DNA of 64,000 nucleotides from Acidobacteriota bacterium (GCA_016715865.1 JADJXM010000006.1:257564-321563); one strand, 5' to 3'. Counted from the stretch's first letter, positions 380 through 46,018 are shown. Program-made: numbers and translations. Notes: a model not told the origin generated them from the sequence alone.

Positions 380-918
380 AGTGCAAGCTTTCAGTTGATA
401 TAAATGAATTAATGGTTCGCATCATATTTATTATGGCTTTGACTTTGCTGATCGCTCCGGCGGTATGGGCGCAGAGCGCCAGCGGTGCGCCGGTTCCCGT
501 CGAAGAGCAGAGCGAGGCGATGATCGACACCCTCAAGCGGATGCGGATCAAACGGGAAGAGAACGAGCATAAAAAACTGCTCGAAAAAGGCACTCAGATT
601 CTGGAAATCTCGGAAGAACTGGCCAGGAATTACGCACATCAGACCATCACCAGCCTTCCACGCGAAGTCGAGAAGAAACTCAAGGAGATAGAAAAGAACG
701 CTCGCCAGATTCGATCCGAATCGGGCGGCTCCAAAGACGAACCTCTGGAATCGCCCCCGGCAACGCTCGATGAGGCGATAAACCGGCTCGAAGAGACCTG
801 CCGTCACCTCAACGAAGACCTTTCCAAAACTTCCCGGCGCGTCGTCTCGGTCTCAGTCATCAACCATGCGATCGAGGTGATTGAAATCGTACGTGTGTTG
901 AAGGGATATATTAAATGA
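376..918 (+). CDS. hypothetical secreted protein (signal peptide, charged coiled-coil-like body)
   Basis: N-terminal hydrophobic stretch MVRIIFIMALTLLIAPAVWAQ typical of a Sec signal peptide (true start probably the internal ATG ~412); remainder K/E-rich, no known domain recognised. Confidence 0.45.
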   Translation: MKCKLSVDINELMVRIIFIMALTLLIAPAVWAQSASGAPVPVEEQSEAMIDTLKRMRIKREENEHKKLLEKGTQILEISEELARNYAHQTITSLPREVEKKLKEIEKNARQIRSESGGSKDEPLESPPATLDEAINRLEETCRHLNEDLSKTSRRVVSVSVINHAIEVIEIVRVLKGYIK

Positions 919-1955
919 GTAGAAAGTATAAAGTTGAAAGTAGAAAGTACAGAACTACGGGAGCGCGGCTTTCCGTACTTTCTACTTTATACTTTCTACT
1001 TTTTACTTCAATCGTTGCCGGGCAACAGCCTGCACAACCTCAGCAACATCCCAATGAACTGAGGATCAAAGTAGTCGAGCGTCAGGATGAGAACCGGCAG
1101 GAGCCTCCGAAGAAGATCGAGCCGTCCGAGGATTCGATCTCACTTGAAACGAATCTGGTTGTCGTCAACGTGACGGTCACCGATGCGGAGGGGCGTTATG
1201 TGCCGGGGCTGAAAATTCCGGACTTCAGGATTCTGGAAGACAAAAAGACCCAGGAAATTCTCAGTTTCAGCTTTGAAGAATTGCCGTTCGCCGCTGCCAT
1301 CCTGCTCGACAGCAGTGGCAGCATGGAGCAAAAGCTCTCGCTCGAGCGCGCAGCCTGCGCCAATTTCATCGATGGAATCCGGCCCGGGGATTCTTATTCA
1401 ATCTACAGTTTCGGCGGAACGAAGGTCAAAAAGCTGCAGGACTTCACCGAATTCAAGGACGTGCCGGACTCGGTCTGGGACATGCGGGCGGATGGAAACA
1501 CGCCGCTCTATGATGGAATCCATGAAGCGGCCGAAGCTCTATCGAAGCGACCAGAGCGGCGACGGGTGATCCTGATCGTTTCGGACGGCGCCGATACCCA
1601 GAGCCGCAGATCGCTCGACGAAGCGCTGCGAAAGGCGATTGCCGCTCACGTTTCGATTTATGCCGTTGATATGAGCGACTCTTCCGTCTTCGGCGGGCGA
1701 CAGCGCGACAGCGGAGCCGAAGTGCTCAAGTCAATGACCGCCAGGACCGGCGGAAGGTTCTTCAGGTCACCCGGCGGCATAACCCTGCGCGAGGCTTTCG
1801 CCAATACGGTCGATGAATTGCGTAAACAGTACACAATGACATACTCATCGACCAACGAACGCTTCGACGGAAAGTGGCGCGAGATCGAAGTTCGAGTCGT
1901 TCAGCCAAATCTCGGCATTCGCACACGACAGGGATATTTCGCGCAGAAAAAATAG
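915..1955 (+). CDS. von Willebrand factor type A (VWA) domain protein, secreted
   Basis: MIDAS motif LLDSSGSM (DxSxS), downstream T and D residues of MIDAS, VWA-fold length; N-terminal signal peptide (n-region RKYK..., h-region LSVLSTLYFLLFTSIVAG|QQ). N-terminus is encoded by a repeat hairpin (see findings). Confidence 0.8.
   Translation: MSRKYKVESRKYRTTGARLSVLSTLYFLLFTSIVAGQQPAQPQQHPNELRIKVVERQDENRQEPPKKIEPSEDSISLETNLVVVNVTVTDAEGRYVPGLKIPDFRILEDKKTQEILSFSFEELPFAAAILLDSSGSMEQKLSLERAACANFIDGIRPGDSYSIYSFGGTKVKKLQDFTEFKDVPDSVWDMRADGNTPLYDGIHEAAEALSKRPERRRVILIVSDGADTQSRRSLDEALRKAIAAHVSIYAVDMSDSSVFGGRQRDSGAEVLKSMTARTGGRFFRSPGGITLREAFANTVDELRKQYTMTYSSTNERFDGKWREIEVRVVQPNLGIRTRQGYFAQKK
917..1008. 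repeat. GTAGAAAG-family tandem-octamer inverted-repeat hairpin (B1), embedded in 5' end of VWA gene
   Basis: Left arm atgagtagaaagtataaagttgaaagtagaaagta; right arm tactttctactttatactttctactttttactt, reverse-complementary, ~25-nt spacer. Confidence 0.8.
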
Positions 1956-2097
1956 GGATTCATTGCTGCTCCGGGCTCACTCTGAGCGCCTGCTTGACTG
2001 GCCAATACCCGTCACTTATAGTTAAAAGTTCGCAGGGAATGATTGCTGGAATCATTCCCTCACATCTGCTCACAAGTCAAAGAAGGGATGCAATAAA

Positions 2098-2526
2098 ATG
2101 GGTTTGGGAATGCCCGAAGTGGTTTTGATTCTGGTCATTGCGCTGATCGTATTCGGTCCACGCAAACTGCCCGAACTGGGAAAATCCCTGGGACAGGCGA
2201 TGTCCCAGTTTCGCAGGGCGTCTGATGATTTCAAGCGGACCTGGGAGCAGGAAGTCGAGATGGAGACGATTCGCAAGACCGATTCCATCAGCAGCACTTC
2301 GTCCACATACGAGGATCCGGGTTCGCCGGATTCATATTCTTATGACAACTACTCATCGGATTCGAACGACTACATCCGTGACAACACGTATGAAACCGAG
2401 AGTGATGTCGCAAGCGACACGGCTAAGTCACAGGAAACGACTGAAGCCAGCACTGAGACATCGACCGTCGCCGCCACACCTGCCGCCAATGCCACCCCTG
2501 CGCCCGAGAAGCAGCGCTGGATCTGA
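2098..2526 (+). CDS. tatA: twin-arginine translocase subunit TatA/E with long acidic/Ser-Thr-rich C-terminal tail
   Basis: N-terminus MGLGMPEVVLILVIALIVFGPRKLPELGKSLGQAMSQFRRA matches the TatA TM helix-hinge-amphipathic helix signature (FGP.KLP); directly upstream of tatC. Confidence 0.85.
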   Translation: MGLGMPEVVLILVIALIVFGPRKLPELGKSLGQAMSQFRRASDDFKRTWEQEVEMETIRKTDSISSTSSTYEDPGSPDSYSYDNYSSDSNDYIRDNTYETESDVASDTAKSQETTEASTETSTVAATPAANATPAPEKQRWI

Positions 2527-2548
2527 CAGGCAATGAGTAACCTTAATA

Positions 2549-45017: not shown

Positions 45018-45021
45018 CAGA

Positions 45022-45756
45022 TCAGGCGATCTCCATTGCGCGCAGGTGTTCGAGCCGGTTGAGCGATTTCCGAATCTGACGATCGACCTGCGAGACCAGC
45101 TCAGCCATCAGATCGACGCCCATCGAATCGGCGTTCTCAACGCGCAGTTTCAGTTTGTAGATTTCAGAGCCGGTGATATCAGCGAGATCGGCCTCGATCC
45201 CGACAAGTCGCTGACGCGCCTCGGCAACCTTTCGCAACAGCAGGATCATTTCGGCGGACATTACACGGGCGTCAGTGACCTCATCGTGGGCGGCCCCGGC
45301 ATCCAGCAGGTTCTGCAGTCTGTCCTCAGCGCCGGTTTCGTATGCGCGATTGACTTCGACCATCAGTTGATGGCGATGACGACGTTCGTGTTCACAGGAT
45401 GTCAGGTCCGGGTGGAATTTGCGCGCCACTTCGCGGTAGAGCTTCTTGAGCCTGTCTGAATGCATGCGGTTCTGGCCACATCCGACCTCATCTTCAGCCA
45501 GTGAGGCATCGACAACATCCTCATCGAATGGCAGCCCCTGCAACTCCGCGATCTGTTTTTCGATTTCGGCCAGTTGATCGTATTTGTTGCCGACTACGGG
45601 CAGATATCGCCCTTCAAAAATGCGCATTCCCTTTTCCAGGTCTGCGAGTTCGATCTCACGGCCTGCGATCGCGGCTTCAAGCGCGGCCAGATCTTCGCGC
45701 AGTTCTTCGATCCTCTTCTGATCGGCGGCATTGCTTAATGTCAGTTCCGAATCCAT
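45022..45756 (-). CDS. J-domain (DnaJ-like) protein with coiled-coil regions
   Basis: LKKLYREVARKFHPD contains the invariant HPD tripeptide of J domains in correct helix II-III context. Confidence 0.7.
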   Translation of the reverse strand: MDSELTLSNAADQKRIEELREDLAALEAAIAGREIELADLEKGMRIFEGRYLPVVGNKYDQLAEIEKQIAELQGLPFDEDVVDASLAEDEVGCGQNRMHSDRLKKLYREVARKFHPDLTSCEHERRHRHQLMVEVNRAYETGAEDRLQNLLDAGAAHDEVTDARVMSAEMILLLRKVAEARQRLVGIEADLADITGSEIYKLKLRVENADSMGVDLMAELVSQVDRQIRKSLNRLEHLRAMEIA

Positions 45757-45817
45757 CAGTCAGGCAACCTCACTACTTTGTAAAATAAATTTTATATGAT
45801 TTCAAGCCTGGGACAAG

Positions 45818-46018
45818 TTAGCCAAAGGCCATTAAGATGGGCAAGGATTTTAAGTCGCAAAGGGCCATTTAAATGAGAATAAGTGGGGATCAGCATATTT
45901 GATTGCGCTTTTGGCGAACTGGATATTACTGCGAAAACGATCACTTCTTATAATCTTTGGCCGACTTGGCGTCCTTGGCGTTTAACCCTTGGCAGTCTTG
46001 GCGTCCTTGGCGTTGAAA
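45818..46018. repeat. GGCGTCCTTG-family element (D2), degenerate left arm and intact right arm
   Basis: Right arm ctttggccgacttggcgtccttggcgtttaacccttggcagtcttggcgtccttggcgttg nearly identical to D1 right arm; upstream gccaaaggcc/gggcaagg/cgcaaagggcc degenerate copies. Confidence 0.7.

What the first reader, a model, noticed from the sequence alone, without database searches (positions are those of the whole stretch)
917..46018. Four families of tandem 8-10 nt repeats organised as inverted-repeat hairpins at gene boundaries
At least 12 loci carry short tandem arrays: GTAGAAAG/GTAAAAAG (x5), GTTTCCAG (x3), GTTGAAAG (x2) and GGCGTCCTTG (x2). Each is arranged as two reverse-complementary arms around a 25-90 nt spacer, or as a single arm. 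All lie in intergenic gaps, usually starting within 0-5 nt of a stop codon and often preceded by a conserved tgagta leader. The families differ in sequence but share architecture, which suggests one generating mechanism: a non-autonomous hairpin element (MITE/REP-like) or a templated repeat-expansion process rather than independent microsatellites. They could act as transcription terminators, mRNA stabilisers or recombination hot spots. I do not recognise them as any described element class.
Basis: seen in the sequence. Interest (0 to 1): 0.75.

Follow-up and report, generated by a model that had tools for sequence, protein, structure and literature searches.

The report
Tandem-heptamer hairpins at gene ends
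In this soil acidobacterium, 7-base (and one 9-base) units repeated head to tail form the two arms of long hairpins right at stop codons; they are real and change fast, but they belong to a kind of bacterial repeat that is already described and still poorly understood.

Summary
The units are 7 nt (AGTAGAA/AGTAAAA/AGTATAA, AGTTGAA, AGTTTCC) and 9 nt (NNCGCCAAG), not 8-10 nt. There are 12 loci: 15 period-7 runs against 0.1 expected. One locus is not intergenic: it encodes a signal peptide.

The arrays behave as slippage-prone simple-sequence repeats. Against a 97%-identical strain, 3 of the 4 indels in 5.6 kb are whole units inside arrays.

Two gene boundaries keep a long hairpin across related Blastocatellia while its sequence is replaced by other heptamers, a 15-mer or a unique GC-rich stem. 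What persists is the stem-loop, not the unit sequence.

The arm order is fixed: 32 of 35 heptamer pairs and 27 of 30 nonamer pairs. Stop codons abut the AGT-type strand 46 times against 6.

My best reading is gene-end or intercistronic stem-loops with a REP-like role, a terminator or exonuclease barrier, built from hypermutable repeats. That role is inferred, not shown.

Convergent pairs of heptamer arrays beside stop codons were already described in Xanthomonas, and paired tandem repeats in Geobacter metallireducens. This is therefore a new member of a known kind.

Only the nonamer element shows partial support for a MITE/REP-like nature. No transposase lies in the window. Interest is moderate.

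The parts
918..954 (.). Locus A, 5' arm (AGTAGAA/AGTATAA/AGTTGAA units). It also encodes the basic n-region (SRKYKVESRKY) of the vWA protein's signal peptide.
   Evidence: (I6)
971..1008 (.). Locus A, 3' arm (TTCTACT-type units). It also encodes the hydrophobic h-region (LSVLSTLYFLLFT).
3599..3641 (.). Locus B, 5' arm. It starts GTAG directly after the TatC stop (TGA 3596-3598) and carries AGTTTCC x3 plus one 16-nt unit.
3702..3802 (.). Locus B, 3' arm: six copies of a 16-nt unit holding CTGGAAACT. It ends at the stop of the convergent TPR gene (3803).
8351..8382 (.). Locus C1, 5' arm (GAAGTTTCCAG units), a few nt after the stop of gene 7440-8345.
   Evidence: (I8, 97% complementary)
8454..8494 (.). 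Locus C1, 3' arm (ACTGGAA units).
9333..9364 (.). Locus C2, arm facing the Flp pilin gene (AGTTTCC units).
9436..9482 (.). Locus C2, arm abutting the stop of the MBL-rhodanese gene (9481). Strain L122 carries one extra 15-nt unit here.
10905..10946 (.). Locus D, arm next to the start of the MBL-rhodanese gene (AGTAGAA x5-6), preceded by TGAGTAAATG.
   Evidence: I3-I5; 7-nt indel against L122
10958..11009 (.). Locus D, arm that supplies the last codons and the stop of the amidohydrolase gene (10988-11962, minus strand).
   Evidence: 21-nt indel against L122
17489..17526 (-). Locus E, single arm. On the minus (sense) strand it reads (AGTAGAA/AGTAAAA) x5, directly after the stop of the outer-membrane efflux gene and inside an efflux operon.
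   Evidence: also present in L121
30884..30913 (+). Locus F, single arm (AGTAAAA AGTAGAA AGTATAA x2), 3 nt after the stop of the CHAT-TPR gene.
32372..32400 (.). Locus G, 5' arm (AGTTGAA x2 plus unique sequence).
   Evidence: (I16)
32423..32454 (.). Locus G, 3' arm (TTCAACT/TTTAACT), 4 nt before the stop of the convergent peptidase gene (32459).
37583..37622 (-). Locus H, single arm. On the sense (minus) strand it reads AGTAGAA/AGTGGAA units and overlaps the stop of the enoyl-CoA hydratase gene (37615-38397).
39506..39572 (.). Locus I, 5' arm of the nonamer element (AACGCCAAG/GACGCCAAG units).
   Evidence: (I1, 67 nt, 94%)
39651..39717 (.). Locus I, 3' arm (CTTGGCGTC units).
41152..41188 (.). 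Locus J, arm next to the start of the LemA-like gene (AGTTGAA/AGTTAAA x4). A second short copy at 41249-41271 comes from an 83-nt tandem duplication.
41353..41406 (.). Locus J, arm that follows the stop of the TPR gene (41411-43105, minus strand): TTCAACT/TTTAACT x7, ending TACTCA.
45867..46023 (.). Locus K, second copy of the nonamer element: core plus the CTTGGCGTC arm, 85% identical to locus I. The other arm is decayed.

Best explanation
These are slippage-prone short tandem repeats, with 7-nt units and one 9-nt family. They make up the arms of long stem-loops placed at gene ends and between cistrons.

Shown:
- The arrays gain and lose whole units between near-identical strains, and the two arms change independently.
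- A given gene boundary keeps a long hairpin across related species while its sequence is replaced.
- The arm order is fixed, with the AGT-type, usually purine-rich, arm 5' and its complement 3' on either strand.
- Stop codons abut the AGT-type strand.

Inferred:
- Selection keeps the stem-loop rather than the unit sequence.
- The stem-loop most likely acts on the transcript as REP/BIME hairpins do. It would be a barrier to 3' exonucleases, a partial or bidirectional terminator, or possibly a brake on terminating ribosomes, since it starts within the ribosome footprint of the stop codon.
- Replication slippage builds and reshapes the arms. Template switching within the quasi-palindrome would keep the arms alike.
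- Single arms are partial or decayed forms that are tolerated in operons.
For: - Excess of period 7: 15 runs against 0.1 expected.
- Hairpins: 81-97% complementary arms, -37 to -75 kcal/mol, z -5 to -11.
- Slippage: window against L122 is 96.8% identical over 5.6 kb with only 4 indels. Three of them lie in arrays: 21 nt (three units), 7 nt (one unit) and 15 nt (one unit).
- Amidohydrolase|MBL boundary: heptamer hairpin in the window, L122, L121 and L124, with unrelated loops. L127 has a 15-mer-armed hairpin there and L125 a unique GC-rich 30-bp hairpin.
- TPR|TatC boundary: AGTTTCC arms in the window, AGTAGGC/AGTAAGC arms in L124. The flanking genes are orthologous at 76%.
- Arm order: 32 of 35 heptamer pairs and 27 of 30 nonamer pairs.
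- Stop codons within 30 nt: 46 on the AGT-type strand against 6 on the complement. Counted another way, 42 against 2.
- The same genome has other long hairpins without tandem repeats that start at stop codons.
- Published parallels: PMC4692102, PMC2700814, PMC3733652.
Against: - No transcript data exist, so the RNA-level role is unproven.
- Sense and antisense strands fold equally well, and G-U pairs show no strand bias. A DNA-level palindrome or a purely mutational origin fits that equally well.
- Stems are long and AU-rich, loops are 16-190 nt, and there is no clean U-tract. They are not canonical intrinsic terminators (flags only small inner hairpins).
- The hairpins at D and J sit 18-27 nt from the next start codon, which rules out simple termination followed by a new promoter.
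- Single arms E (also present in L121), F and H form no hairpin.
- In L090 the two arms of locus J are of different types.
Confidence: 0.5

Rival explanations
1. They are non-autonomous mobile elements (MITE or REPIN-like). They insert at gene ends and are moved by a tyrosine (RAYT/TIRYT-type) or other transposase encoded elsewhere in the genome. Slippage comes second.
For: - Nonamer element: loci I and K share an 85% core, and I is closer to K than to its own ortholog in L090.
- Several contigs of one metagenome carry copies with a constant 92-95 nt spacing; in the two copies read (L156, L162) the core is a similar palindrome.
- A nonamer element lies nested beside the heptamer hairpin in L124.
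- A GTAG core and a TGAGTAG leader are present. GTAG supplies the TAG stops of both convergent genes in L124, as described for GTAG-tagged REPs (PMC3733652).
- The same units occur in many phyla.
- Different families occupy the same boundary in related genomes.
Against: - Heptamer loci share no loop or spacer sequence.
- I saw no defined ends and no target-site duplication.
- The arms are direct repeats, not palindromes.
- Copy number changes in whole units at fixed sites.
- No transposase occurs among the 54 window genes. None occurs among the genes called in L121 and L124-L127.
Confidence: 0.2
2. They are a neutral by-product. Heptamers slip easily during replication, the arrays accumulate where they do no harm (just past stop codons), and template switching makes inverted copies. 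They have no function.
For: - Whole-unit indels and independent change of the two arms.
- No strand bias in pairing.
- Heptamer excess is a general bacterial trait ascribed to polymerase slippage (as summarised in PMC4679880 and PMC4692102).
- Arrays are absent at some orthologous sites, such as E and C2 in L124.
Against: - The hairpin persists at the same boundary across species with wholly replaced sequence, including a form without repeats.
- The strict arm order and the strand bias at stop codons are not expected from neutral slippage alone.
Confidence: 0.2
3. They are binding arrays for a protein that reads repeated units. On DNA this could be a nucleoid protein such as IHF or HU, as proposed for Geobacter. 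On RNA it could be a cold-shock-type protein or a HutP-type protein that reads UAG-N4 repeats.
For: - Regular 7-nt spacing.
- (AGUAGAA)n equals UAG-N4 repeats. The match to HutP sites is from my own knowledge and was not tested.
- Published proposals exist for other heptamer arrays (PMC2700814; PMC4679880).
- Single arms persist in an operon (locus E in the window and in L121).
Against: - The unit sequence is not kept at orthologous sites: AGTTTCC against AGTAGGC, and heptamer against a unique GC-rich stem.
- Several families coexist in one genome.
- Copy number is unconstrained.
Confidence: 0.08
4. They are assembly or adapter artefacts.
For: None found.
Against: - The same loci carry arrays in independent assemblies from different samples and pipelines.
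- The arrays are shorter than a sequencing read.
- One array is read through as a reading frame that an NCBI annotation also calls.
Confidence: 0.01

Closest known systems
GGGAATC / GGGGA(C/T)T heptamer repeats of Xanthomonas and Nostoc (Rehm et al. 2015, PMC4692102)
   Same: - Tandem 7-nt units, intergenic.
- 70-75 pairs per genome 'in convergent orientation', one on each strand, able to form stem-loops.
[quoted passage not shown]
- Same sites in related species, with length and sequence variation.
- The type (single or paired) is preserved.
   Different: - Those units are G-rich and were studied as G-quadruplex formers. The units here are AT-rich (14-43% GC) in a 55% GC genome and cannot form quadruplexes.
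- The phylum differs.
- Several unit families and a nonamer family coexist here.
Paired tandem hepta- and octanucleotide repeats of Geobacter metallireducens, the 'putative global regulator binding sites' (Aklujkar et al. 2009, PMC2700814)
   Same: - Four to five tandem 7-8-nt units.
- Mostly found in pairs on opposite strands at a variable distance.
- Intergenic and multicopy.
   Different: - Other unit sequences (MTYCTGA, GTTGCTYN).
- Interpreted as IHF/HU DNA sites.
- No link to stop codons and no comparison between strains was reported in the passages I read.
REP / BIME / REPIN elements with RAYT transposases (Di Nocera et al. 2013, PMC3733652; Bertels and Rainey 2011, PMC3116915)
   Same: - Extragenic hairpins just downstream of genes.
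- Inverted doublets form a long hairpin.
- A GTAG motif can supply the TAG stop.
- Proposed roles in mRNA stability and termination.
- My inferred function is REP-like.
   Different: - A REP unit is itself a 20-40 bp palindrome with a 6-13 bp stem, conserved across hundreds of copies. Here each arm is a direct tandem repeat, and the loops are not conserved.
- Copy number varies by slippage.
- No RAYT was seen.
TAACTGA direct repeats of marine Beggiatoaceae, cyanobacteria and Bacteroidetes (MacGregor 2015, PMC4679880), and the cyanobacterial STRR heptamers
   Same: - Intergenic tandem heptamers with stop codons in all frames on one strand.
- The same unit is scattered across distant phyla.
- Mixed arrays of several heptamers.
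   Different: - Those lie mostly upstream of start codons.
- They are almost never inverted: one indirect repeat among 170 sets.
- They were proposed to act in translation.

Membership tests
Heptanucleotide simple-sequence repeat arrays (long SSRs of bacteria) | Three or more head-to-tail copies of a 7-nt unit, more than chance would give | tested here: met
   TRF period 7. 15 runs against 0.1 in shuffles.
Heptanucleotide simple-sequence repeat arrays (long SSRs of bacteria) | Copy number changes in whole units between close relatives (slippage) | tested here: met
   Indels of 21, 7 and 15 nt inside arrays. They are three of the four indels in 5.6 kb at 96.8% identity.
Heptanucleotide simple-sequence repeat arrays (long SSRs of bacteria) | Intergenic, close to gene ends, with a strand preference, and also as convergent inverted pairs (as in Xanthomonas) | tested here: met
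   13 of 16 runs lie in the 12% of the window that is non-coding. Stop adjacency is 46 against 6. Arm order holds in 32 of 35 pairs.
REP / REPIN (RAYT-mobilised) | Each unit is a short imperfect palindrome (stem 6-13 bp) conserved among many copies | tested here: not met
   The arms are direct tandem repeats with no internal palindrome. Heptamer loci share only the repeat units.
REP / REPIN (RAYT-mobilised) | GTAG tag at one end | tested here: inconclusive
   GTAG lies inside the AGTAGAA and AGTAGGC units and in the TGAGTAG leader. It is absent from the AGTTGAA, AGTTTCC and nonamer arms.
REP / REPIN (RAYT-mobilised) | A cognate RAYT gene in the genome, flanked by the repeats | not testable with these tools
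   None among the window's genes or the genes called in L121 and L124-L127. The rest of the genome was not available.
MITE | Defined length, conserved internal sequence, terminal inverted repeats and target-site duplication | tested here: not met
   Heptamer loci have loops of 16-190 nt that are unrelated to each other, and I saw no duplication. The nonamer element partly meets this: I and K share an 85% core and a multicopy palindromic core occurs in one metagenome.
Intrinsic (Rho-independent) terminator | Short GC-rich stem, small loop, then a U-tract | tested here: inconclusive
   Stems are 25-35 or more bp and AU-rich, with large loops. The 3' arm is U-rich, and in L121 it leaves a UUUUUACUUUUUACUU tail. 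The consensus scan flags only small inner hairpins at 956-977 and 17470-17488.
Rfam RNA families | Match at the gathering score | tested here: not met
   0 matches in the window. The permissive search gives only sub-threshold matches of the hairpins to eukaryotic microRNA precursors.

The most novel reading that the evidence does not exclude
Hairpins whose arms are short tandem repeats could be a pan-bacterial, orientation-locked class of gene-end element. The same units (AGTTGAA, AGTAGAA, NNCGCCAAG) recur in distant phyla and across GC contents of 0.32-0.77. That would point to a shared agent not yet identified. It could be a mobilising enzyme that cuts at GTAG-like cores, or a conserved factor that reads the repeats. 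These elements can also be absorbed into genes, as here, where the two arms became the basic and hydrophobic parts of a signal peptide.
Probability: 0.15. Interest if true: 0.7.

Novelty: new member of a known kind. Interest (0 to 1): 0.4.

Why it matters
Heptamer repeats are the commonest long simple repeats in many bacteria, and nobody knows why. This clade offers a clean comparative case:
- The hairpin stays at a gene boundary while its sequence is swapped.
- The arm order is fixed.
- The arrays touch the stop codon.

These points turn 'what are heptamer arrays for' into concrete tests, namely 3'-end mapping and arm-swap reporters.

The signal peptide written by the two arms also shows a simple route by which a repeat hairpin can seed a new protein-targeting sequence.

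If the function is merely REP-like, the finding adds a new phylum and new unit families to a known phenomenon.

Tried and rejected
- Reading the units as 8-mers: no tandem 8-mer match.
- A universal AGT core for all heptamer arrays: only 9 of 45 unrelated units contain AGT/ACT, which matches my own rough estimate of the chance rate (about 20%).
- An RNA strand test: sense and antisense energies and G-U counts show no bias, so it is uninformative.
- Conserved loops among heptamer loci, as a sign of a mobile element: none found.
- Rfam at gathering and permissive thresholds: nothing real. No tRNA genes.
- A transposase or RAYT in the window: none.
- The exact repeat strings in 8 million papers: no hit.
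- The source contig through exact protein look-up: not on record.
No complete census of taxa or copy numbers was possible.
- Comparison with the Correia/NEMIS, ERIC and E. coli REP consensus sequences was made from memory only. None is built of tandem heptamers.
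Full report
**What is in the sequence**

Tandem Repeats Finder reports short arrays of period 7 at 918-949/976-1008, 3618-3641, 8454-8472, 9333-9350/9436-9452, 10905-10946/10958-11009, 17489-17526, 30884-30913, 32375-32391/32432-32454, 37583-37622 and 41157-41187/41254-41270/41356-41406. It reports arrays of period 9 at 39509-39533/39696-39713 and 45965-46013.

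A tandem 8-mer search finds nothing.

My own scan finds 15 period-7 runs against 0-1 for periods 4-6 and 8-11. Thirty dinucleotide-preserving shuffles give a mean of 0.1.

Eight loci have two complementary arms, and the 5' arm always carries the AGT-type unit. Three loci (E, F, H) are single arms. K has one decayed arm. The two-arm loci that I folded (A, C1, C2, D and G) form hairpins of -37 to -75 kcal/mol with z-scores of -5 to -11.

**Context**

The window is ordinary chromosome from an uncultured member of the Acidobacteriota, class Blastocatellia. This rests on the source names of the closest proteins. The genes are housekeeping ones: TatA/TatC, an RND efflux operon, HflX, cytochrome oxidase, CarA and others. 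There is no transposase, no tRNA and no Rfam family.

Called reading frames cover 88% of the window, yet 13 of the 16 heptamer runs lie wholly in the remaining 12%.

In the window, six purine-rich arms begin 2-13 nt after the stop of a long reading frame of 181 or more codons.

There are two exceptions to 'intergenic':
- The right arm of D supplies the last codons (KVESRK) and the stop of the amidohydrolase gene.
- Locus A lies inside the vWA gene.

**Locus A encodes a signal peptide**

The only in-frame start of the vWA gene is the ATG at 915. It overlaps the stop of the upstream gene (ATGA). The 5' arm then reads SRKYKVESRKYR, and the 3' arm reads LSVLSTLYFLLFT, followed by IVAG|QQPAQPQQ.

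Orthologs at 64-78% identity have ordinary short signal peptides in front of the same QQPA..PNELRI motif. An NCBI annotation calls the identical 346-residue product.

Where a pure AGTAGAA array would place an in-frame TAG, this arm has TAT and TAC (read directly). So the two arms have become the basic and the hydrophobic halves of a signal peptide.

**How the arrays change**

A strain from ENA assemblies is 96.8% identical to the window over 5.6 kb and differs by only four indels. Three of them fall inside arrays:
- 21 nt (three units) in one arm of D
- 7 nt (one unit) in the other arm of D
- 15 nt (one unit) in C2

The fourth is a 3-nt indel elsewhere. The two arms of D changed in opposite directions. 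This is the behaviour of replication slippage.

Against a 91%-identical MAG, the alignment breaks exactly at loci H and J. At J that genome has AGTTGAA units on one side, AGTAGAA-type units on the other, and an unrelated spacer.

**What is conserved**

At the amidohydrolase|MBL-rhodanese boundary, the window, the 99% strain and relatives at 84% and 81% protein identity all have AGTAGAA-type hairpins, with unrelated loops. Two more distant Blastocatellia have a long hairpin at the same place built differently. In L127 the arms are tandem 15-mers. In L125 the stem is a unique GC-rich 30 bp.

At the convergent TPR|TatC boundary the window has AGTTTCC arms, while L124 has AGTAGGC/AGTAAGC arms. The outermost GTAG of those arms supplies the TAG stops of both genes. 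The flanking genes are orthologous at 76% identity.

The window also holds long hairpins without tandem repeats that begin at stop codons: 22439-22559, 26769-26849 and 11999-12069.

So the stem-loop at a gene end persists while its sequence turns over. In this clade, slippage-prone heptamers are the usual building material.

**Order and strand**

These came from Bacteroidota, Cyanobacteria, Acidobacteriota, Patescibacteria, Verrucomicrobiota and other phyla.

- In these loci plus the relatives, 35 inverted pairs of heptamer arrays occur. In 32 the purine-rich arm comes first. The other three are AGTTTCC or AGTTTTG, so they are still AGT-first.
- A long reading frame ends within 30 nt of an array 46 times with the AGT-type strand as sense, and 6 times with the complement. 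By another count the figures are 42 against 2.
- The nonamer behaves alike. 27 contigs of GC 0.44-0.77 carry the pair in the order NNCGCCAAG then CTTGGCGNN, against 3 in the reverse order. 20 of the 27 abut the end of a long reading frame.

I could not explain the fixed order. A 3' arm rich in U suits termination in both directions. However, folding energies and G-U counts show no difference between sense and antisense strands.

**Mobile element or not**

The heptamer loci share nothing but the repeat units, which argues against a MITE or REP.

The nonamer element is different:
- I and K share an 85% core, and I is closer to K than to its own ortholog.
- One metagenome holds several copies with a constant 92-95 nt spacing, and in the two copies read (L156, L162) the core is a similar palindrome.
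- In L124 such an element sits nested beside a heptamer hairpin.

The GTAG core and the use of GTAG as a stop codon echo GTAG-tagged REPs (PMC3733652). That paper also reports RAYT-like transposases with terminal repeats in Acidobacteria. I could not test this link.

**Comparison with the literature**

- Rehm et al. described GGGAATC heptamer arrays in Xanthomonas. [quoted passage not shown] The arrays sat at the same sites in related species with different lengths, and their function is unknown (PMC4692102).
- Aklujkar et al. annotated tandem hepta- and octanucleotide repeats, mostly in pairs on opposite strands, in Geobacter metallireducens (PMC2700814).
- MacGregor described TAACTGA arrays shared by distant phyla (PMC4679880).

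None of the unit strings found here occurs in the searchable literature.

**Verdict**

The feature is real, non-random and fast-evolving. It is a new member, from a new phylum and with new unit families, of a known and still unexplained kind.

The REP-like role of the stem-loop is my best inference, at about 0.5 confidence. The slippage dynamics and the persistence of the hairpin at fixed gene boundaries are shown.

Noticed in passing
window 915-1025: The signal peptide of the vWA protein is written by the two arms of hairpin A. The purine-rich arm gives the basic n-region and the pyrimidine-rich arm gives the hydrophobic core. Unit variants (TAT, TAC) avoid in-frame TAG. Orthologs have ordinary short signal peptides.
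   Followed up: yes
window 22439-22559, 26769-26849, 11999-12069, 55455-55579: Long, nearly perfect hairpins without tandem repeats that start at or inside stop codons. Stems reach 56 bp. The first has an A-tract before it and a U-rich tail after it. Gene-end hairpins are general in this genome.
   Followed up: partly
window 39506-39717 and 45867-46023; L124 9770-9970; L150, L156, L159, L162, L176: The nonamer (NNCGCCAAG)-armed element behaves like a multicopy palindromic element. Two window copies share an 85% core, and copy I is closer to K than to its ortholog in L090. One metagenome has several copies at a constant 92-95 nt spacing, with a similar palindromic core in the two I read. The same nonamer occurs in contigs of GC 0.44-0.77.
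   Followed up: partly
window 37487-37571; L050 about 5560-5660: A stretch of about 72-80 nt is present in the window but absent from the orthologous site of the 91%-identical MAG (L090). A 77%-similar copy lies next to another CTTTCTA array elsewhere in that MAG. It may be a small insertion element.
   Followed up: no
window 41171-41332: An 83-nt unit, made of an AGTTGAA arm plus part of the spacer with its own small hairpin TCGGAGCGTTCCGA, is duplicated in tandem at 89% identity. The relative L090 has one unrelated spacer there.
   Followed up: partly
window 17475-17488 (minus strand) and 30930-30943: An identical 14-nt string, CGGAACCGCAAGCG, follows the single arms E and F. CGGAAC/GTTCCG motifs also flank single arms in L050, L065 and L090.
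   Followed up: no
window 9093-9165 (minus strand); L121 11575-11645; L124 11690-11756: The leader upstream of the Flp pilin gene (8886-9092) is nearly invariant, GTCTGAAGTAACGAT.AACGGTACGCCCC..GGTACC.AATCAGGACTGGGGAAC, in relatives whose proteins are only 81-84% identical. It folds into two small hairpins and has no Rfam match.
   Followed up: partly
window 30983-32370: Two overlapping reading frames (30983-31924 and 31690-32370), neither with a Pfam match, may be one gene with a frameshift. The second frame ends 4 nt before hairpin G.
   Followed up: no
L071 7890-7950, L076 1020-1075, L077 7810-7870: In a Holophagae MAG, (AGTTGAA)3 lies between CCCACCC-type motifs at three separate loci. This suggests that the heptamer array is part of a larger repeated element in that genome.
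   Followed up: no
L124 18445-18697: The outermost GTAG of each AGTAGGC/AGTAAGC arm provides the TAG stop codon of the two convergent genes (TPR protein and TatC). The same has been described for GTAG-tagged REP elements.
   Followed up: partly
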